A DNA stretch of 64,000 nucleotides, taken from assembly GCA_038045825.1 (NCBI GenBank), contig JBBSXJ010000003.1, positions 148 through 64,147 on the forward strand. The letters are read 5' to 3'. This DNA is from Nanobdellota archaeon (lineage in GTDB: Archaea > Nanobdellota > Nanobdellia > Pacearchaeales > GW2011-AR1). Within the stretch, counting starts at the first letter, position 1, and the number at the start of each line of letters is the position of its first letter. Positions 614 through 64,000 of this stretch are shown piece after piece. The translations under genes were made by a program, and so were the position numbers. The notes under the pieces were generated by a model. It made no database searches and was not told the DNA's origin. It worked only from the letters and a program-made list of their open reading frames with translations.

Positions 614-856
614 TTATTCCTGAGCTAACTTAGCTTCTAGGCCAAGTTCTCTGGCAATTTCAACAGCTATTTGATTAGCGTTTTCTTTAGTCGTATAAGG
701 TCCACACCTATACATGCTATACCCAATTGGACTCTTGCTAAGATCTGGTACAAATGTGTGATTACCTATTGTAATCTCAACCCGATAATTATCTGGAGGT
801 TCTGGGTCACCTCTTGCACCTTCATAATAACCCACTTTAATCTGAATATTGTTCAT
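614..856 (-). CDS. Hypothetical protein (80 aa)
   Basis: ORF fills the gap between flanking genes; no motif recognised. Confidence 0.5.
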   Translation of the reverse strand: MNNIQIKVGYYEGARGDPEPPDNYRVEITIGNHTFVPDLSKSPIGYSMYRCGPYTTKENANQIAVEIARELGLEAKLAQE

Positions 857-899
857 TATTTTAAATAAATTAAACTCTTTATAATTATTTAGATATTAA

Positions 900-1301
900 T
901 TATTTCTTGTTGGATTTTATAAAATAGAAGAATGTATAGAATAAAGCTAACAAAATTCCGATTGATAAAAAGATAGTTGTATATGTTCCTTGGTATTTTC
1001 TTGTCAATGCATATGCTACTGCAATTATTCCTGCTACGCTTATCAGACCACCCATATACTTGTTGCTTGCCATAATGAATCTGATCCAAACTAAGAATAA
1101 AGCCATAACTAAACCTATAATTATTCCGAATACTATTTGCACCCATCCGAAGTCTGCATTTGTTTTTATTTTAAGAAAATAAAAGAATAATTCTGCTAAT
1201 ATTACAAAAGAAATTGCTGTGATCGTTGTTAATTTATCTACCGCAAAGGTCTTATTATCCGAATCATCTTCATCTTCGTAATCATCTCTTTTTTGCGCCA
1301 T
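900..1301 (-). CDS. Membrane protein (about 4 TM)
   Basis: Hydrophobic helices; start MAQKRDDYEDED at 1301 avoids overlap with the upstream gene. Confidence 0.7.
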   Translation of the reverse strand: MAQKRDDYEDEDDSDNKTFAVDKLTTITAISFVILAELFFYFLKIKTNADFGWVQIVFGIIIGLVMALFLVWIRFIMASNKYMGGLISVAGIIAVAYALTRKYQGTYTTIFLSIGILLALFYTFFYFIKSNKK

Positions 1302-1323
1302 TATGTATTTTGATTTTGCTATT

Positions 1324-2001
1324 TTATATATCTTTAGAAGAAAATTTAATTTGTCTTCTATGTCTTGCCCATGCAAAAATAGCATATAATGAAGATCCAA
1401 GAATTCCAAAAGATAAATCAAATATTGTGTCGCGCAATGGATCAAGCAATAAATTGAATTTGTCAAGGCCAGTTATATCTCTTAGATATACTCCTTGTAA
1501 TTTCCAATTAAAGAATGAATCTAATACATATTCTAGTATTTCAAAAATTCCTAGAAATGCTACTACAGATAAAACTGTGAATGTTAGTTTCCATTTCATT
1601 GCTAGTTTAAGTTTGTTTACCATGAAAAATATAATAGAACAGAGAAGCATTGGAATAACAAAATGTTGTAATTTATCGTATGTGGGATATACAAAATATA
1701 ATGGACTCATCATTAAAGTTGAGACTCCTATTAAAAATATGAAAATATAGTGCTTTAGTTCCAATCTGACATCAAAAAGATGATCCACTAAATATGAAAC
1801 AAGAATTACTCCTAGAAATGTTGAATATCTTAATGTAATTGATGATGAGTCTTTGAATAAATATATTGCAACTAAAAGAAGAATTGATATGATTCCAACT
1901 ATCAAACGCTTGTGTCTGTAAGCTTTCTGAATCTCTTTTTTTATTTTATTTTTTAAGTAGGATCTTCTTGACTCTTTATTATTGACAATCTCTTTTTTCA
2001 T
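1324..2001 (-). CDS. Polytopic membrane protein (DUF2238-like)
   Basis: Several TM segments; YDKLQHF and FEILEY motifs resemble DUF2238-type proteins. Confidence 0.65.
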   Translation of the reverse strand: MKKEIVNNKESRRSYLKNKIKKEIQKAYRHKRLIVGIISILLLVAIYLFKDSSSITLRYSTFLGVILVSYLVDHLFDVRLELKHYIFIFLIGVSTLMMSPLYFVYPTYDKLQHFVIPMLLCSIIFFMVNKLKLAMKWKLTFTVLSVVAFLGIFEILEYVLDSFFNWKLQGVYLRDITGLDKFNLLLDPLRDTIFDLSFGILGSSLYAIFAWARHRRQIKFSSKDI

Positions 2002-2053
2002 CTGAAAATTAAAGATGCAATAGCTTTAAATATAGTTCTTTTTGTTATTTTTT

Positions 2054-2394
2054 GTGAGTCGGGCAGCTAACTCCGAAGGTGTCTTTCGATAGACAAGAGT
2101 TTTTATGAATTCTCCTTTGAGGAAGGTCCGGACATCGATAAAAGCGACTGCTTGAAAAGGCAGCTGTCGTGAGGCAAGAGCTCCGCAACAGAAACGAACC
2201 AACCTTTTAATTAAGGGAACGGATGAAACGCACTAATTGTGCATCGCACAATGGTGACTCCAACTCTCACGAGTTGAAGTGGCGCCTTCGCTGATGCAAC
2301 CACCAAAGCCGTGGGCTTAGAATGATGTTAGCACAAAGAGTTTGTCCTGAAAGGGAAACGATCTTTGACAGAATCTGGCCTATGCCTGACTCAC
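2054..2394 (+). ncRNA. rnpB: RNase P RNA
   Basis: P1 GTGAGTC/GACTCAC; P2 GCTAAC/GTTAGC; CR-I GAGGAAGGTCCGGAC (2119-2133) pairs with CR-V ACAGAATCTGGCCTA as P4 with bulged U and compensatory changes; CR-II ACAGAAA and CR-III TGAAACG present. Confidence 0.93.
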
Positions 2395-2454
2395 TTTATT
2401 TTACCATTATAAGATTTCTACTCTAGTTTATAATAACCTGGTCTGTCTAAATAA

Positions 2455-3207
2455 GTGGGTATAATCTTAACTTACGAAGATCTTCTAACTACTTACAAAA
2501 CTCGAACGCATCGAATAAGACACTTAAAAGATTACACTCATCTTTTTCCAATCAATGCAAATGAAACTTTAGCAGGTATTGTTGCAGATTTAATGGGAGA
2601 CGGCAATTTACAAAAAACTCCTGTTTGGAGAATTGATTTTACTTCTAAAGATTTAGAAGAATTAAAAAGATTTGAAACTGAAATGTTAAAAAATTTTAAC
2701 ATTAATGGAAAAATAAGGCCTTGCTCCACTAATAAATATCACACCTATAATATCGGATTTAATTGCGCTCCTGTTGCTCGCATTTTATATCTTGCAGGTG
2801 TTCCTGCTGGACAAAAAGTCTTACAAAAATTTGATTTACCAAACTGGATAAAAGAAGATAAAGACTATTTTAGAAGGTTTTGCCAAAGATTATTTACTTG
2901 TGAAGGAAGCATTAATTATGAGTTAGGGAGAAATCCTAGAGTCGGAATAAATATGTGGAAATGTGAAGAATATTTAAACCAGGGAAGAATTTTCTTTGAA
3001 GATATATCTGATTTAATGAAAAAATATTTTGATATAGACTCTAAGGTTAGTGTTGGAAGTTCAAAGAATTTAAGAAAAGATGGGATAATTACCAGACCAG
3101 TATACATACTAATACCATCTAAATCTACTTTAATATTTCATAAGAAAATTGGTTTTGAAGGGGAAAAACAGAATAGACTTTCTAATATTCTAAATACTAA
3201 AGTTTAA
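2455..3207 (+). CDS. Free-standing two-motif LAGLIDADG endonuclease-like protein
   Basis: Motifs LAGIVADLMGDGNL and RLFTCEGSI; no intein splicing residues at the termini; GTG start. Confidence 0.85.
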   Translation: MGIILTYEDLLTTYKTRTHRIRHLKDYTHLFPINANETLAGIVADLMGDGNLQKTPVWRIDFTSKDLEELKRFETEMLKNFNINGKIRPCSTNKYHTYNIGFNCAPVARILYLAGVPAGQKVLQKFDLPNWIKEDKDYFRRFCQRLFTCEGSINYELGRNPRVGINMWKCEEYLNQGRIFFEDISDLMKKYFDIDSKVSVGSSKNLRKDGIITRPVYILIPSKSTLIFHKKIGFEGEKQNRLSNILNTKV

Positions 3208-3233: not shown

Positions 3234-3305
3234 GGGCGGGTAACTCAGTGGGAGAGTACACGACTGAAGCTCGTGCTGCCGGGGGTTCGATTCCCTCTCC
3301 GCCCA
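3234..3305 (+). tRNA. tRNA-Phe(GAA), intronless, CCA not encoded
   Basis: Cloverleaf: GGGCGGG/TCCGCCC acceptor, ACTC/GAGT D stem, CACGA-CTGAAGC-TCGTG anticodon arm, GGGGG-TTCGATT-CCCTC T arm. Confidence 0.95.
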
Positions 3306-59020: not shown

Positions 59021-61087
59021 TTATCTGCGAGACATTCTTACTGCAACTACAATTATCAATATTATTAATATAATATTAATTGCTGCAATTATCCAGATTA
59101 GTGAGCCTTCAGAGTTAAATATATTTTTAACATTTGAAGCTGCTAATTCAACTTCAATTTCTTGTACTTGAACTCTTCCATCTTCAGATACTTGTAAGTC
59201 AAATGATTGCATTCCTTCAGCGTCTTCATTAACTATCATAGTCAATGTAACTTCTTCGCTTTCTCCTGCGTCAACTGATATTGTTTGAGGTGATATGTCT
59301 GTCAATTCAGCCCATTCAGAATATCCGCGAGCGCTTATGCTGAATTCAGCATCTTCGTCTCCAGTATTTGTGATTGTAGCAACAATTACTAGTTCTTCTC
59401 CAGCTTTAGCATCTGAAGCAAGATCAGCATCAATAGCTATGTTTGTCAATCCACCTGAAGGATTTCCAATATTACCAGTGCAACCTAGAACTTCTATTGA
59501 GTATTCTGTTGCTTCATCAGCTTCTTGATCATAAGATCCATCATCATAATCATATTCTGTTATGAACTCAAGTACATAGTTTCCGCTTCTAGCTGTTGCA
59601 GGAATAGTCATTGAGAAGTCAAGAGTTTCGTCTTCTCCTTGGTCTAAATCAGATGTTATTTCTCTTACTACATTGATTCCAAGGTCATTATTTAATACTG
59701 TTATTCTTACTCTTTCTTCATCGTCTTCTCCAACGTTGAATACTTTGAATTGTCCTGAAACTGTTTGACCACATGTAAGTTGAGTGTCTAATTCTATTTC
59801 ATCAACAATAACAAAACGACCTTCATCGTTTGTTTGTTCAACTGATATTGTTTGGTAAAAATCATTGTTAAGATTGTTTGAAGTGTCTACGCAGTCTCTT
59901 GATTGGCCAGCGTCTTCGTCATAAACTTTAACTGCAAGCTTGTAATCTCCTGAGTCTAAGTCTGCTGGAACTTTGAATTCCCAACTAACTGTTTCTTCGT
60001 TGTCTTCGTCAATGCTTATTTCAATTTGTTCTTCGTCTTCTCTTGAGTCTCCAAGGAATGTTAATTCGTCTGAGACGTCATTTCCAGATGAGTCAAATAA
60101 TCCAAGAACTGCAACTACATCTACTTCATCATCTTGGTTGTTATTCTGAATATCTATTTCAACTTCAATTTCGTCAAGTAATTCCCATTCAGTGTCTTCT
60201 CCTTCTCCAGTGTTGGAAAAGTCTATTCCTTCAATTGTAAGGTTTGTTGTAATGCTTTGTCCTGCTGAACAGAATGTTTTTCTTACTTTGAAGTTTCCAG
60301 ATGCAACTTGATTTCCAGATTCTGCTCTGAAATTTATTGTGTTTTCTCCGAATTTAAGTCCTGTCAATCCAGGTCTTGCTTGTACTATCTGATTTTGTCC
60401 ACCAGATAATGAGAAAGATGATGGTGAGAATATTACTCCTGAAATAGGGTTTGTTGTTTCAGACATTGTAACTGTGTTGAATGTTGTTGAACCTGTGTTT
60501 GATATTGTTATTGTGGCATTTTGATTTACATTTACAGCTGCAGATGATGATGATGCTGTAAGATTAGAAGATAGAGTTATAGCTGTTCCTTCAAGTTTAA
60601 CGTCATCTATTCTGCATAGTTCTTGTCCTGAATTTGTAACACATTCAAATCTTATCTTGAAGTTAGCATTATTATTTGCTAGAGCTGTGTTAATGTTTGT
60701 AATTGTTTCTGTTACGAATGCCGAATTTGTTGCTCCAGTATATGTAGCAACTTGTAAAAATGTTGTTCCGTCATATGAAACTAATACTCTCAACTCATCC
60801 CCTGCTTCAAATAAGTTATTGTTAGAATCTACTAATTGCCTAGCGAATGATAAAATTATGCTATTGAATCCTGTTGTTGAAGCTGTTCTTGTTCCTGTTG
60901 ATGTAGTTCCCCCTGATACGCTTGCAGATTCTAGATATCCTGATGTAAGTGACCATGATCCAGGTGTCCAAGCTCCAGGAACTGTAGTAAAGTCATCTAG
61001 GAATATTGTAGCTGCACTTGTAAGTGAAAGGGATAGAACTGCTAATGTAATAAATACAAACAATGAAGCTAATTTTGCAAATTTCAT
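59021..61087 (-). CDS. Putative S-layer/surface glycoprotein, likely sortase substrate
   Basis: Signal peptide from ATG 61087, acidic Ig-like domains, C-terminal TM plus basic tail (IVVAVRMSRR); adjacent to the sortase gene. Confidence 0.8.
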   Translation of the reverse strand: MKFAKLASLFVFITLAVLSLSLTSAATIFLDDFTTVPGAWTPGSWSLTSGYLESASVSGGTTSTGTRTASTTGFNSIILSFARQLVDSNNNLFEAGDELRVLVSYDGTTFLQVATYTGATNSAFVTETITNINTALANNNANFKIRFECVTNSGQELCRIDDVKLEGTAITLSSNLTASSSSAAVNVNQNATITISNTGSTTFNTVTMSETTNPISGVIFSPSSFSLSGGQNQIVQARPGLTGLKFGENTINFRAESGNQVASGNFKVRKTFCSAGQSITTNLTIEGIDFSNTGEGEDTEWELLDEIEVEIDIQNNNQDDEVDVVAVLGLFDSSGNDVSDELTFLGDSREDEEQIEISIDEDNEETVSWEFKVPADLDSGDYKLAVKVYDEDAGQSRDCVDTSNNLNNDFYQTISVEQTNDEGRFVIVDEIELDTQLTCGQTVSGQFKVFNVGEDDEERVRITVLNNDLGINVVREITSDLDQGEDETLDFSMTIPATARSGNYVLEFITEYDYDDGSYDQEADEATEYSIEVLGCTGNIGNPSGGLTNIAIDADLASDAKAGEELVIVATITNTGDEDAEFSISARGYSEWAELTDISPQTISVDAGESEEVTLTMIVNEDAEGMQSFDLQVSEDGRVQVQEIEVELAASNVKNIFNSEGSLIWIIAAINIILIILIIVVAVRMSRR

Positions 61088-61208
61088 TTTATGTTGAAAA
61101 TCAGCAAGAATGAGGCTATATAAATATTTCGGTGTTAAACGAACTCTTACCATATTTATTACTCTGATATTAAGAAAAATTTATATGGTCAATTGTATAT
61201 AATAGTAT

Positions 61209-61583
61209 ATGGCGATAAGGTCAAGAGAAAATGTTTTAAGCGCTTGGGCTTTTCTTATAGGGATAGTTCTTGCTTTGATGGGGGGAATGATTAGCGCTAT
61301 ATTTGGAGACCTTAATCCTATTGTTCTTGGATTCTTGTTAATGCTAGGGTTAGTAATTGGATTTATTGGGGTATCTCCTAATGATATAAGTAAGTTCATG
61401 ACGTCTTCTGTTTCTTTAGTAATAGTTAGCTTTGCAGGAAGTGCTGGGGTAAGAAACATAGAATTCCTTAGTTGGGAGGTAGGTAATATAGTATCATCTA
61501 CTCTTGGGGCATTATTGGTATTGTTAGTTCCTGCAACAATTGTTGTAGCAACAAGAAACTTATTCTCTATATCTCAAGGTTGA
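61209..61583 (+). CDS. Small membrane protein (4 TM)
   Basis: Hydrophobic throughout. Confidence 0.7.
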   Translation: MAIRSRENVLSAWAFLIGIVLALMGGMISAIFGDLNPIVLGFLLMLGLVIGFIGVSPNDISKFMTSSVSLVIVSFAGSAGVRNIEFLSWEVGNIVSSTLGALLVLLVPATIVVATRNLFSISQG

Positions 61584-61776
61584 CTAAATCTTGATTTGTC
61601 ATAACCTTCTGCCCTTCTTCCAAGCGCGTAATGTTGCGCATTTTCGTCTTCCGCTAAATTAATACATATTCTTCCGTCTTTGAACTCAATAGCTCATAGA
61701 CCCAATAAATCTTGGTCTTCTTTCGGGATTTTCTACTTCCATTAAAAAATCTAAAATAGTCTGTTCTTAGACCTAA

Positions 61777-62166
61777 CTACATTAAAGAATCTTCTTTTGG
61801 ATTTGCAGGAGCAGATTGTCCTGTTGGTCCCCTATATATCTCAGCAAAGTCTGGAGAAGCAATTATTGCTTGGTCTCCGAAACCAGCAATTGAGCCTTCC
61901 ATTGCATCAACTGTTTTCTTTATCTTAGTCAATGCTCTCTTTAATTCAATAATATCTTTACTCTTTAATTTTCTTATATCTATAAAAGCAATTGTATATC
62001 CTTCTCTAAGAGCAGTAAGAATTTCATTTATATCATCATACTTTGTTAAAGTAAATTGACGAATCTTTATTTTTTCCTTACGAGCCTTTGTTTGATTTAA
62101 ATCAAGTTCTACGTAATCATCTGAAGGTTGAGATTTATTGAAAACCCCTTTGAAACCAAACACCAT
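61777..62166 (-). CDS. sepF: Cell division protein SepF
   Basis: LREGYTIAFIDIR...LKRALTKIKKTVDAMEGSIAG. Confidence 0.85.
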   Translation of the reverse strand: MVFGFKGVFNKSQPSDDYVELDLNQTKARKEKIKIRQFTLTKYDDINEILTALREGYTIAFIDIRKLKSKDIIELKRALTKIKKTVDAMEGSIAGFGDQAIIASPDFAEIYRGPTGQSAPANPKEDSLM

Positions 62167-62226
62167 ATTGTCTGATAAATTGTTCAGTATATAAATATTA
62201 TCGTATTAAGAAATAGATTATAGCTC

Positions 62227-62571
62227 TTACTTCTCCGACGAAGATTTCTTTTCAAGAATATTTTTTATTTCTGACTGAAGCTCCATAGCTCTTGATTCTA
62301 TTGACTTCTCTTGCTTTTCTATTGAAGAATTTCTTAATTCAAGCAGTTTTTTCTTCTCTTCAAGTTCAGATAATGTTTTATTTTTATCAACAGATACAAT
62401 AATTGAACCAACCATCTTGTAAACTGAATCTTTTGTTTTATTTATTTCAGAAACTGCATTTGAAGTCTCACTCAGTTCAATAGATATATTCTGCTTCTGC
62501 ATTAATAAGGATTGTAAGTTTTGCTCTAGAATTTGTAAATCCTGTATCTTCTGCCTTGCTTTTTCATCCAT
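62227..62571 (-). CDS. pfdB: Prefoldin beta subunit
   Basis: Coiled coils flanking VYKMVGSIIV; after rpoP. Confidence 0.88.
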   Translation of the reverse strand: MDEKARQKIQDLQILEQNLQSLLMQKQNISIELSETSNAVSEINKTKDSVYKMVGSIIVSVDKNKTLSELEEKKKLLELRNSSIEKQEKSIESRAMELQSEIKNILEKKSSSEK

Positions 62572-62572
62572 A

Positions 62573-62710
62573 TTAAATTGCCTTTATCTTAACAACATGC
62601 GTTCTAGGCTTGTAGAATATTTTAGAATTGCAATTAGGACAATTGAATACCTTATCAAGAACTTTGCTTGTTAAAGGTTTAGTGCATCTGAAGCATTTGT
62701 ATTGAGCCAT
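62573..62710 (-). CDS. rpoP: RNA polymerase subunit P (Rpo12; 45 aa, not in ORF track)
   Basis: MAQYKCFRCTKPLTSKVLDKVFNCPNCNSKIFYKPRTHVVKIKAI; between rpl37ae and pfdB. Confidence 0.92.
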   Translation of the reverse strand: MAQYKCFRCTKPLTSKVLDKVFNCPNCNSKIFYKPRTHVVKIKAI

Positions 62711-62740
62711 GTTTAGTTTTGTATTTTTGTATTTTTAAGT

Positions 62741-62959
62741 TTATTTATTTAGTACGTATGCGTGACCTGCGAATTGAACTCCGCATTTTTCACAGTGCCA
62801 TATTCCTGCAGCCTGTCTTTTTACTCCTGGTTTCTTGCAGTGAGGACAAACTTGTTTTTTTCTTTGAAGTGATTCAACAGCGTTCAATCTGTTTCTTAAA
62901 TATGTGCCATATCCTGCGCCAAAACGGCCAGCTGCTTTTACTTTTTTTGTTTTAACCAT
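62741..62959 (-). CDS. rpl37ae: 50S ribosomal protein L37Ae
   Basis: AGRFGAGYG...CPHC...GIWHCEKC. Confidence 0.95.
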   Translation of the reverse strand: MVKTKKVKAAGRFGAGYGTYLRNRLNAVESLQRKKQVCPHCKKPGVKRQAAGIWHCEKCGVQFAGHAYVLNK

Positions 62960-63218
62960 AAATGTGATTGAGAAAGTGGGTTTTTAAATTATTCGTACAA
63001 AGATTAGGTTAAATCGACAGGTTCCATTGATGCAAGATAGTCTTCTACTTCTTCTTTAATATCTGCGAGCGGTTGTTTAACCGAAACAAAAATTGGGTGA
63101 GATTGATCTGAAAAGATTGATTTGTATAACTCAACTTCTTTTGAGCTTTACCATCGTATTGATTTAGAAAAGTGTGTTTAAAAGAATTCTGGTTTGTTTT
63201 GGAATATTATTTATAAAA

Positions 63219-63292
63219 TGGGGCTGCGCGGATTTGAACCGCGGTCTCGAAGTCCCAAACCTCGGATACTAACCAAGCTATACTACAGCCCC
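63219..63292 (-). tRNA. tRNA-Pro(UGG), intronless, CCA not encoded
   Basis: GGGGCTG/CAGCCCC acceptor, CGAGG-TTTGGGA-CTTCG anticodon arm, CGCGG-TTCAAAT-CCGCG T arm. Confidence 0.95.
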
Positions 63293-63939
63293 ATTCCTGC
63301 TCTTACCGGTTTTATTTCGTTAATAAATCTTGCCACTTCATTTTTTCTATAGAGGCAAACATTTCTTTTATTAGATTTTGCAAAATGATATCCTAAACTT
63401 AAGGCTAATTCTTTAAAATCAAAAAGTAATTTTCTATTAAAATTTGTGAATTTAACATATTTTTGTTTTTCTCTTTTACAAATATATACACATCCATCCG
63501 TATCTATTAGTCCTTTTATGCATCTTTTTGTATATTCTTCATTTTCTTTTACCCATTCTGGAAATGAGATTTGATTGACTATTTTATCCCCTCTTAATAA
63601 TCCTATTTTAATTAATTCTTCAACTAATTCTTTATTATAACAATACAGATATGCTTGATTAGTATCTTTGTAAATCTCCTCTCTAAGATGAATTCCAAAA
63701 ATATCATAAAATAAATCTTTAAGGTAATTAAGATAATCTTTCTCCCTTTTATCACAACATATTCTTATTCGGTTTCTATAAATATTTCCATCTCCTAACA
63801 TTATACCAATCAATTCCGCAATCAAATTTCCTTTTTTATCAAAATCTGGCAAGCTATATTCCTCAGATGCCGCATATCTCCCGAGATTATCTTTGTAATT
63901 TAATTTGATTTCTAATAAGTTAAAATTTTTATTAAACAT
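63283..63939 (-). CDS. Free-standing two-motif LAGLIDADG endonuclease-like protein
   Basis: LIGIMLGDGNI and KGLIDTDGCV; stop codon lies inside tRNA-Pro. Confidence 0.85.
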   Translation of the reverse strand: MFNKNFNLLEIKLNYKDNLGRYAASEEYSLPDFDKKGNLIAELIGIMLGDGNIYRNRIRICCDKREKDYLNYLKDLFYDIFGIHLREEIYKDTNQAYLYCYNKELVEELIKIGLLRGDKIVNQISFPEWVKENEEYTKRCIKGLIDTDGCVYICKREKQKYVKFTNFNRKLLFDFKELALSLGYHFAKSNKRNVCLYRKNEVARFINEIKPVRAGMGL

Positions 63940-64000
63940 TTTTTCTATTTTACCTAAATGATCTTGATTAATCGTTTTATTTTTATTAAGTATATTTTTT

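What the first reader, a model, noticed from the sequence alone, without database searches (positions are those of the whole stretch)
63219..63939. LAGLIDADG gene borrows its stop codon from inside tRNA-Pro
Seen: the ORF ends ...ATG GGG CTG TAG, where GGGGCTGTAG is nucleotides 1-10 of tRNA-Pro. Inference: if co-transcribed, RNase P cleavage at tRNA +1 would strip the stop codon and leave a non-stop mRNA. tRNA maturation would then limit expression of a potentially toxic nuclease, and the ORF's dependence on the tRNA suggests insertion right at its 5' edge.
Basis: partly seen in the sequence, partly recalled or inferred. Interest (0 to 1): 0.6.

Follow-up and report, generated by a model that had tools for sequence, protein, structure and literature searches.

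The report
Endonuclease cassette that rebuilt tRNA-Pro gene
A selfish DNA-cutting-enzyme gene inserted into the only proline tRNA gene found in this tiny groundwater archaeon and brought a spare front end and probably a promoter for that tRNA, which is why the enzyme's stop codon lies inside the tRNA; this way of settling in a genome is widespread and I found no published description of it.

Summary
Confirmed. On the minus strand a LAGLIDADG ORF ends ATG GGG CTG TAG, and the TAG is nucleotides 8-10 of tRNA-Pro(UGG) (63219-63292).

- **The gene:** It has an N-terminal HTH and an I-DmoI-like double LAGLIDADG core with both catalytic Asp.
- **The overlap is a family trait:** all 24 mapped relatives lie directly 5' of tRNA-Pro, about 20 of them after rpl11, and stop inside or beyond the tRNA. 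Sister clades do the same at tRNA-Gln and Val.
- **Patchy presence:** same-genus genomes have the empty site (rpl11, promoter, tRNA-Pro). Only 6 of 301 genomes of the order carry the gene.
- **Insertion point:** a decayed copy of tRNA-Pro nt 5-27 lies upstream of the ORF, here and in 8 of 18 relatives. The cassette therefore entered the tRNA gene near nt 27.
- **What it carries:** a replacement tRNA front end and a TATA-like box (TTTATTAA, fixed at DNA level in 17 of 18 loci) inside its last codons. The stop codon belongs to the cassette's own tRNA piece.
- **The RNase P 'non-stop' idea:** still possible, since RNase P RNA is present, but untested; the tRNA probably has its own promoter.

This scan reported similar cassettes on other DNA. 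I found no publication.

The parts
63283..64000 (-). HTH-LAGLIDADG homing-endonuclease ORF. The C-terminal 238 codons and the stop lie in the window. The full ORF has 270 codons, and its ATG lies 95 nt beyond the window end (L001 2310-2308 on the minus strand, G000:C3:64242).
   Evidence: Pfam LAGLIDADG_3 scores 43.8 bits against a cut-off of 22.5. The AF2 model has pLDDT 91.8. Foldseek top hits are the TliVMA intein endonuclease, I-Tsp061I and I-DmoI.
63787..63813 (-). LAGLIDADG motif 1 (LIGIMLGDG, residues 95-103; catalytic Asp102).
   Evidence: G101, D102 and G103 are invariant in 40 family members.
63493..63519 (-). LAGLIDADG motif 2 (IKGLIDTDG, residues 193-201; catalytic Asp200).
   Evidence: D198, T199 and G201 are invariant; D200 is present in at least 90% of members.
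63320..63327 (-). TATA-like box TTTATTAA at -35 to -28 from tRNA +1, formed by codons Phe257-Ile258-Asn259. It is the probable cassette-borne promoter of tRNA-Pro.
   Evidence: The position matches this genome's tRNA promoter boxes. TTTATTAA is present in 17 of 18 family loci. The Ile codon is ATT in 17 of 18 loci against 44% elsewhere (binomial 9.5e-6). A control TATA-like site at Asp-Phe-Lys drifts freely. The PWM score is only 2.2.
63283..63292 (-). 10-nt overlap of ORF and tRNA. The stop codon TAG (63285-63283) is tRNA U8-A9-G10.
63219..63292 (-). tRNA-Pro(UGG), 74 nt, no intron, no encoded CCA. It is the only tRNA-Pro that ARAGORN finds in the 836-kb assembly. Its first ~27 nt are inferred to be cassette-borne.
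63215..63218 (-). TTTT directly after the discriminator base. It is the likely shared transcription stop for the tRNA and any read-through ORF transcript.
   Evidence: Sequence. The terminator role is inferred from general knowledge of oligo-T termination in archaea.

Best explanation
The ORF is a free-standing, probably active homing endonuclease gene with an N-terminal HTH and a monomeric double LAGLIDADG core. It belongs to a clade specific for the tRNA-Pro gene that follows rpl11 in Pacearchaeota/Woesearchaeota-type DPANN archaea.

It is one part of a compact cassette that entered the tRNA-Pro gene near nt 27. The displaced native front end (nt ~5-27, with a different D-arm) survives as a decayed stump between rpl11 and the ORF. 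The old tRNA promoter region now lies in front of the endonuclease gene.

At its 3' end the cassette carries replacements for what it displaced. These are a TATA-like box (TTTATTAA), written into the codons of the protein's last helix, and a new tRNA front end (nt 1 to ~27). The reading frame runs through both and stops at the first in-frame stop, which is the conserved U8-A9-G10.

- **Shown:** the overlap; the fold and catalytic residues; empty sites in close relatives; the patchy distribution; the fixed position in the family; the DNA-level conservation of the box; and the stump.
- **Inferred:** endonuclease activity and its target; that the box is the working tRNA promoter; that the new front end makes the rebuilt gene immune; and which promoter drives the ORF.
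For: - **Family geometry.** Relatives in same-genus and same-order genomes end inside tRNA-Pro, tRNA-Gln or tRNA-Val. Protein C-termini in 120 homologues are tRNA-Pro translations...GAVG, GAMG, GVVV, GMGL, or whole-tRNA read-through ...GSNP.... In 24 mapped loci the stop ends at tRNA nt 10 (6 loci), nt 15 (11 loci) or later (7 loci).
- **Synteny.** The order rpl11-ORF-tRNA-Pro-rpl37ae holds in about 20 named MAGs.
- **Empty sites.** Twelve same-genus genomes have rpl11, about 50-60 nt with a TTTATATA promoter, then tRNA-Pro. The G000 left flank matches them up to ...AAGAACAAA(G)TTTAT and then breaks.
- **Patchiness.** The gene is in 2 of 17 genomes of the genus and in 6 of 301 genomes of the order, each in a different genus, one with an in-frame TGA.
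- **Decoupling from the host.** G000 and G004 share 91% of L11 but only 51-58% of the endonuclease. Across other hosts the G000 endonuclease identity stays at 45-58% while L11 identity ranges over 42-68%.
- **Stump.** ATGTGGAGTAACTCAGGTATCCT, 33 nt upstream of the ATG, matches tRNA-Pro nt 5-27 of another allele type (z 6.4 against one allele; p 0.049 after correction for a 42-allele panel). It does not match G000's own tRNA front end (z -1.0). Stumps reach p<=0.05 in 9 of 19 loci; 6 of these 9 end within 10 nt of the ATG.
- **Enzyme.** Pfam, AF2 and Foldseek results, and both catalytic Asp are conserved.
- **Promoter.**
Against: - There is no biochemical or RNA evidence at all.
- The G000 stump is short and decayed, and only borderline after panel correction (p 0.049).
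- The internal box scores 2.2 on this genome's own tRNA-promoter matrix, where true promoters have a median of 9.2. A random 7-position window reaches 2.2 in 9% of trials.
- G014 has an empty site with a native promoter, yet its tRNA-Pro is 95% identical to G000's, including the same D-arm. The 'new' front end is therefore not exclusive to carriers, and the immunity idea is unproven.
- Endonuclease and L11 identities are still weakly correlated across hosts (Spearman 0.39). Some vertical descent is therefore mixed in.
Confidence: 0.7

Rival explanations
1. First reader's model. The ORF and tRNA are one transcript. RNase P cleavage at tRNA +1 removes the stop codon, and tRNA maturation thereby throttles a toxic nuclease. 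The overlap is selected for this purpose.
For: There is no room for a terminator between the ORF and the tRNA, so any ORF transcript must run into the tRNA. A divergent RNase P RNA is present at window 2055-2397. In all 24 mapped family loci the stop lies at or after tRNA nt 10, so +1 cleavage would always strip it. The internal box is weak by the genome's own matrix.
Against: The stop position is not conserved: nt 10, 15, 21-35, or after the whole tRNA. A few homologues appear, from their C-terminal peptides alone, to end before the tRNA. This looks like a frame running into the first available stop, and two of three frames meet TAG within tRNA nt 8-15. TTTATTAA is fixed at DNA level at promoter distance. 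That points to independent tRNA transcription. With coupled transcription and translation, the first ribosomes could terminate before the tRNA folds (inference). No RNA data exist.
Confidence: 0.15
2. Simple insertion just upstream of an untouched tRNA. The element landed between the TATA box and tRNA +1, carries no tRNA sequence, and its frame merely reads on into the host tRNA. The stump-like string is chance.
For: Homology with empty sites resumes at tRNA +1 and breaks within the old TATA box. The G000 stump is borderline after panel correction. G014's empty allele has the same tRNA front end.
Against: Clear stumps that include the acceptor strand occur in relatives: L035 (z 8.3), L041 (z 6.5), L044 (z 5.5). 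Several stumps end within 10 nt of the ATG. Clades are specific for one tRNA identity. That specificity is hard to explain if only generic promoter or leader DNA were recognised.
Confidence: 0.12
3. A domesticated LAGLIDADG protein, either a WhiA-like regulator or a maturase, that serves tRNA-Pro or the neighbouring ribosomal-protein genes.
For: It has an HTH as well as a LAGLIDADG core, and WhiA appears among the structural matches. Its position next to rpl11 and tRNA-Pro is fixed.
Against: Both catalytic Asp are conserved, whereas WhiA lacks them (general knowledge). The gene is found in only 6 of 301 genomes of the order and 2 of 17 of the genus. Close relatives manage with the empty site. 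Decaying copies exist.
Confidence: 0.05

Closest known systems
Fungal mitochondrial mobile ORFs (mORFs) that form gene hybrids (atp6 of Allomyces macrogynus; atp6, atp9, cox2, nad3 of Glomus; PMC3630166, read)
   Same: A free-standing LAGLIDADG or GIY-YIG endonuclease ORF inserts into a host gene. It brings a foreign copy of the displaced gene end, which keeps the gene working, and leaves the native end beside it as a diverging duplicate. The ORF can be in phase with the host gene and lack its own stop.
   Different: In fungi the 3' end of a protein gene is replaced. Here the 5' third of a tRNA gene and its promoter are replaced, so the element sits upstream. The ORF overlaps an RNA gene rather than being fused in frame to a protein. 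The hosts here are archaea.
Phage T4 SegB, a free-standing GIY-YIG homing endonuclease in the tRNA gene cluster (PMC2330249, abstract read)
   Same: A free-standing endonuclease gene lies among tRNA genes, its recognition site includes conserved tRNA gene sequence, and it spreads together with the flanking tRNA DNA.
   Different: SegB has a different fold. It recognises the T-arm motif common to many tRNAs, does not overlap a tRNA, and does not rebuild one. It is a phage element, not a cellular one.
I-DmoI, I-Tsp061I and archaeal intein endonucleases (TliVMA, PI-PfuI)
   Same: They have the same monomeric double-LAGLIDADG fold and are the best structural matches. They are archaeal.
   Different: Those enzymes are protected inside rRNA introns or inteins that are spliced out. 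This gene has no intron or intein, carries an extra N-terminal HTH, and keeps the host gene working by replacing its front end.
Integrase-type elements that integrate into tRNA genes and carry a copy of the displaced tRNA end (general knowledge, not tested here)
   Same: The logic is the same: target a conserved tRNA gene and restore it with an element-borne segment.
   Different: Those elements use tyrosine recombinases, usually at the tRNA 3' end, and are kilobases long with many genes. This is a single-gene cassette of about 0.85 kb at the 5' end, presumably spread by double-strand-break repair.

Membership tests
LAGLIDADG homing endonucleases (monomeric, two-motif) | Two LAGLIDADG motifs, each with its catalytic acidic residue | tested here: met
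   LIGIMLGDG and IKGLIDTDG. D102 is invariant and D200 is present in at least 90% of 40 members.
LAGLIDADG homing endonucleases (monomeric, two-motif) | Profile match and the two-domain alpha-beta-beta-alpha-beta-beta-alpha fold | tested here: met
   Pfam PF14528 scores 43.8 bits against a cut-off of 22.5. The AF2 model has pLDDT 91.8. Foldseek probability is 1.00 to TliVMA, I-Tsp061I and I-DmoI.
LAGLIDADG homing endonucleases (monomeric, two-motif) | Present or absent at one fixed genomic site, with a sporadic distribution | tested here: met
   Empty sites occur in 12 same-genus genomes. The gene is in 6 of 301 genomes of the order. The rpl11/tRNA-Pro site is the same in about 20 MAGs.
LAGLIDADG homing endonucleases (monomeric, two-motif) | Site-specific cleavage of the empty allele, followed by copying of the gene into it | not testable with these tools
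   This needs purified protein and a genetic cross or a repair assay.
Intron- or intein-encoded homing endonucleases | The ORF lies inside a self-splicing intron, a BHB intron or an intein of the host gene | tested here: not met
   The downstream tRNA is complete (nt 1-73), and the upstream piece is a redundant decayed copy, not an exon. No intron family was found in the Rfam scan of 60000-64000.
Mobile ORFs with gene-end replacement (mORF type) | The displaced native gene segment persists next to the element | tested here: met
   G000 has a stump of nt 5-27 (z 6.4 against one allele; panel-corrected p 0.049). Nine of 19 family loci reach p<=0.05.
Mobile ORFs with gene-end replacement (mORF type) | The inserted segment is of foreign origin and differs from the native one | tested here: inconclusive
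   The stump matches another D-arm type and not G000's own front end. However, the same front end occurs in the empty allele of G014.
WhiA-like domesticated LAGLIDADG regulators | Catalytic residues lost, and the gene universally kept in the lineage | tested here: not met
   The catalytic Asp are kept. The gene is in 2 of 17 genomes of the genus and 6 of 301 of the order.

The most novel reading that the evidence does not exclude
A general 'front-end replacement' way of homing, not described in the papers I could search, operates in DPANN archaea and, according to earlier notes of this scan, in CPR bacteria. Single-gene nuclease cassettes cut a tRNA gene near the D-arm/anticodon-stem junction and capture the tRNA's native promoter for themselves. 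They hand the tRNA a new promoter hidden in their own last codons and a variant or intron-bearing front end that resists recutting. If true, these elements would be a main driver of D-arm variation and odd-position introns in the tRNAs of these organisms. Their expression could also be capped by RNase P cutting off the stop codon.
Probability: 0.3. Interest if true: 0.8.

Novelty: new variant of a known kind. Interest (0 to 1): 0.62.

Why it matters
Homing endonucleases are thought to survive mainly by hiding in introns or inteins that splice themselves out. This cassette shows a third strategy in cellular genomes: cut an essential RNA gene, then rebuild it with element-borne parts, promoter included.

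- **Annotation.** It explains why nuclease ORFs in DPANN MAGs so often 'overlap' tRNA genes, so the overlaps are not annotation errors.
- **tRNA evolution.** It offers a concrete source of D-arm variants, stumps and unusual introns in tRNA genes.
- **Overlapping codes.** It gives a natural case where a protein helix, a TATA box and a tRNA acceptor stem are written in overlapping DNA.
- **Enzyme discovery.** The enzymes are a large pool of compact nucleases with long recognition sites. There are 771 cluster representatives at E<=1e-10, and their likely targets, specific tRNA genes, can be read from context.

Tried and rejected
- **RNA evidence.** No RNA holder is listed for this DNA, so expression, transcript ends and RNase P cleavage could not be examined.
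- **Strain polymorphism.** I laid DNA contigs of four groundwater runs to look for a same-strain empty allele. The joints found (1494 to 3054 and 1507 to 2742) come from other organisms at 85-95% likeness. I do not use them as evidence of polymorphism within the strain.
- **Promoter matrix.** The internal box scores low (2.2), so I do not claim it as a promoter on score alone. The stronger TATA-like match at -128 (GATTTTAAAGAA, 7.9) was rejected as a conserved element because its codons drift freely across the family.
- **Stump against G000's own tRNA.** This gave nothing (z -1.0). The stump appeared only against other tRNA-Pro allele types.
- **G004 stump.** G004's filled allele has a 248-nt spacer with no detectable stump.
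- **ARAGORN with the intron option.** It missed many plain tRNAs in the loci. I mapped tRNA ends by T-loop and acceptor pairing instead. Six of the 33 loci screened could not be mapped, and two further ORFs ran off the end of their locus.
- **Sequence search of solved structures.** It gave only weak intein hits (E 0.003), so the fold search was needed.
- **Literature.** Five full-text searches found no description of LAGLIDADG genes docked on archaeal tRNA genes. The library lacks most subscription journals.

Full report
**1.
On the minus strand the frame ends ...GGA ATG GGG CTG TAG at window 63300-63283. Infernal places tRNA-Pro(UGG) at 63292-63219 with 57.7 bits, and ARAGORN agrees. The stop codon is therefore U8-A9-G10 of the tRNA, and the two genes share 10 nt.

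In the whole genome (836 kb, 16 contigs, 32% G+C) the ORF has 270 codons. Its ATG lies 95 nt beyond the window. A 657-nt contig from another sample of the same study bridges the junction with one mismatch.

**2. The protein.**
- Pfam LAGLIDADG_3 scores 43.8 bits against a cut-off of 22.5.
- An AlphaFold model built on 40 relatives has mean pLDDT 91.8. It shows a small N-terminal helical (HTH-like) domain, a flexible linker and two alpha-beta-beta-alpha-beta-beta-alpha halves.
- Foldseek finds the TliVMA intein endonuclease, I-Tsp061I, I-DmoI and PI-PfuI, and more distantly WhiA.
- Both catalytic aspartates are kept: D102 is invariant and D200 is present in at least 90% of members.
- The superfamily is large, with 1614 cluster representatives at E<=1e-3, 771 at <=1e-10 and 18 at <=1e-30.

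**3. The overlap is a property of the family.**
In 40 related genomes, homologues lie directly 5' of tRNA genes on the same strand and stop inside them. This holds for tRNA-Pro in G004, tRNA-Gln in five loci and tRNA-Val in two.

The 120 closest database proteins (45-65% identity, from Pacearchaeota, Woesearchaeota and Nanoarchaeota MAGs) end in peptides that are translations of the tRNA-Pro 5' end. Examples are ...GAVG, GAMG, GVVV and GMGL. Some run through the whole tRNA and end ...GSNP..PI.

In named genomes the gene order rpl11, ORF, tRNA-Pro, rpl37ae recurs in about 20 MAGs. Where I could map the tRNA by T-loop and acceptor pairing (24 distinct loci), the stop ends as follows:

| Stop ends at | Loci |
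|---|---|
| tRNA nt 10 | 6 |
| tRNA nt 15 | 11 |
| nt 21-35, or after the whole tRNA | 7 |

Two of the three frames entering this tRNA meet TAG within nt 8-15. A frame without its own stop is therefore closed almost automatically.

Within G000, only 3 of 37 tRNAs are reached by a long same-strand frame, and all three frames are nuclease-like.

**4. It is an insertion, and a sporadic one.**
- Twelve genomes of the same genus have the empty site. There rpl11 ends in ...AAGAAATAA, followed by 50-60 nt that contain a TTTATATA promoter, and then tRNA-Pro.
- The G000 left flank aligns with these up to ...AAGAACAAA(G)TTTAT and then diverges.
- Only G000 and G004 of 17 genomes in the genus carry the gene.
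- In an even sample of the order, 6 of 301 genomes carry it. Each is in a different genus, and one copy has an in-frame TGA.
- G000 and G004 share 91% of L11 but only 51-58% of the endonuclease. Against hosts whose L11 identity ranges over 42-68%, the endonuclease identity stays at 45-58%. Overall the two identities correlate only weakly (Spearman 0.39).

This pattern fits repeated invasion and loss.

**5. Where it went in.**
The 97-nt spacer between rpl11 and the ATG contains ATGTGGAGTAACTCAGGTATCCT. This matches nt 5-27 of tRNA-Pro alleles with the ...ATGGGGTAG..TGGTAGCCT front end. The match scores z 6.4 against one allele and p 0.049 when the null also takes the best of a 42-allele panel. 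It does not match G000's own front end, GTAGTATAGCTTGGTTAGTATC (z -1.0).

Such stumps reach p<=0.05 in 9 of 19 family loci. Six of these 9 end within 10 nt of the start codon, and they extend to tRNA nt 20-27. Some include the acceptor strand (L035 z 8.3, L041 z 6.5).

The cassette therefore entered the tRNA gene near nt 27. It carries a complete new front end, and the native one is left upstream to decay. This mirrors the fungal mitochondrial mobile ORFs that replace the 3' end of atp6, atp9, cox2 or nad3 (PMC3630166).

The 'borrowed' stop codon is thus part of the mobile unit itself. It also follows that the native tRNA promoter region now precedes the endonuclease gene, although which start site is used is only inferred.

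**6. The tRNA's promoter.**
Nearly all tRNA genes of G000 have a box RNNTTTAAAANN that starts 31-37 nt before the tRNA, so their leaders are short. tRNA-Pro has TTTATTAA at -35 to -28, inside codons Phe257-Ile258-Asn259 of the last helix.

- On the genome's own matrix this box scores only 2.2, where true promoters have a median of 9.2. A random window reaches 2.2 in 9% of trials.
- Even so, the same eight bases stand at -32 to -36 in 17 of 18 family loci that are only about 50% identical as proteins.
- The Ile codon there is ATT in 17 of 18 loci, against 44% ATT elsewhere in these genes (binomial 9.5e-6; relatedness is ignored).
- A better-scoring TATA-like string at Asp-Phe-Lys, at -128, drifts freely.

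Something at the DNA level constrains this box. A cassette-borne tRNA promoter is the simplest reading.

**7. The RNase P idea.**
A divergent RNase P RNA is present at window 2055-2397. It scores 77.8 bits on RF00373 and 76.5 bits on RF00010, both below the curated cut-offs, with E about 1e-22.

There is no terminator between ORF and tRNA, and TTTT follows the tRNA. ORF transcripts therefore should carry the tRNA, and cleavage at +1 would remove the stop.

Against a selected regulatory role:
- the stop position varies across the family;
- two of three frames meet a stop automatically;
- the tRNA probably has its own promoter.

No RNA runs hold this DNA. I give this reading 0.15.

**8. Immunity and target (inference).**
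Clades are faithful to one tRNA identity (Pro, Gln, Val and others). Recognition must therefore include tRNA-specific sequence, probably around the entry point.

A rebuilt tRNA would restore that site unless its front end differs. In G000 the new D-arm does differ from the stump. Eleven of 24 carrier tRNA-Pro genes are 92-152 nt long, and some have an insert right after nt 21.

The empty allele of G014, however, shares G000's front end behind a native promoter. The idea therefore remains open. Repair that copies only the front end, without the ORF, would explain G014.

**9. Novelty.**
Five full-text searches found no description of this arrangement. The nearest archaeal paper concerns LAGLIDADG genes inside rRNA group I introns (PMC6125680). 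T4 SegB is the closest tRNA-linked free-standing case (PMC2330249).

Earlier notes of this scan report similar cassettes in many DPANN and CPR genomes. I re-derived the stump and replacement model here on independent loci.

Noticed in passing
window 2055-2397 (+): RNase P RNA candidate. It scores 77.8 bits on RF00373 (cut-off 84) and 76.5 bits on RF00010 (cut-off 100), with E about 1e-22. It is divergent enough to fall below both curated cut-offs.
   Followed up: partly
window 2455-3207 (+), with tRNA-Phe at 3234-3305 (+): A second, distant LAGLIDADG_3 ORF (250 aa, Pfam E 5e-7). It ends 25 nt before tRNA-Phe and starts about 60 nt after the RNase P RNA. It may be another tRNA-docked cassette. 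I did not look for a stump.
   Followed up: partly
L137 (G000:C6) 665-1747 (-): A 360-aa ORF with a winged-HTH and a weak Mrr/PD-(D/E)XK nuclease match (E 4e-4). It also stops at nt 8-10, of an intron-containing tRNA-Arg(CCU). The docking geometry is the same but the nuclease fold is different.
   Followed up: partly
L138 (G000:C4:39500-41200), about 1245-1454 (+), before tRNA-Val(GAC) at 1455: About 210 nt upstream of tRNA-Val align at DNA level with the 3' end of the intact Val-type endonuclease ORF of G008, including its ...YYQKPFY...FKTA tail. It is a truncated remnant of a lost cassette.
   Followed up: partly
L001 2408-3154 (-), just beyond the window end: Ribosomal protein L11 has 248 aa here, with an Ala/Lys/Glu-rich C-terminal extension of about 85 residues. 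The ...KKK-stop ending is shared by relatives.
   Followed up: no
G000, all tRNA genes: The tRNA promoter boxes start 31-37 nt before the mature 5' end. This implies very short or nearly absent leaders, although an RNase P RNA is present.
   Followed up: no
L027, L030, L033, L035, L036, L041, L047, L049-L051, L057: Eleven of 24 endonuclease-linked tRNA-Pro genes are 92-152 nt long. Some have an insert directly after nt 21 in the D-loop, an unusual intron position. ARAGORN misses or mislabels several of them.
   Followed up: partly
G293:C40:5630-6277: A Pro-type copy with an in-frame TGA and a missing N-terminus. It is a decaying member.
   Followed up: no
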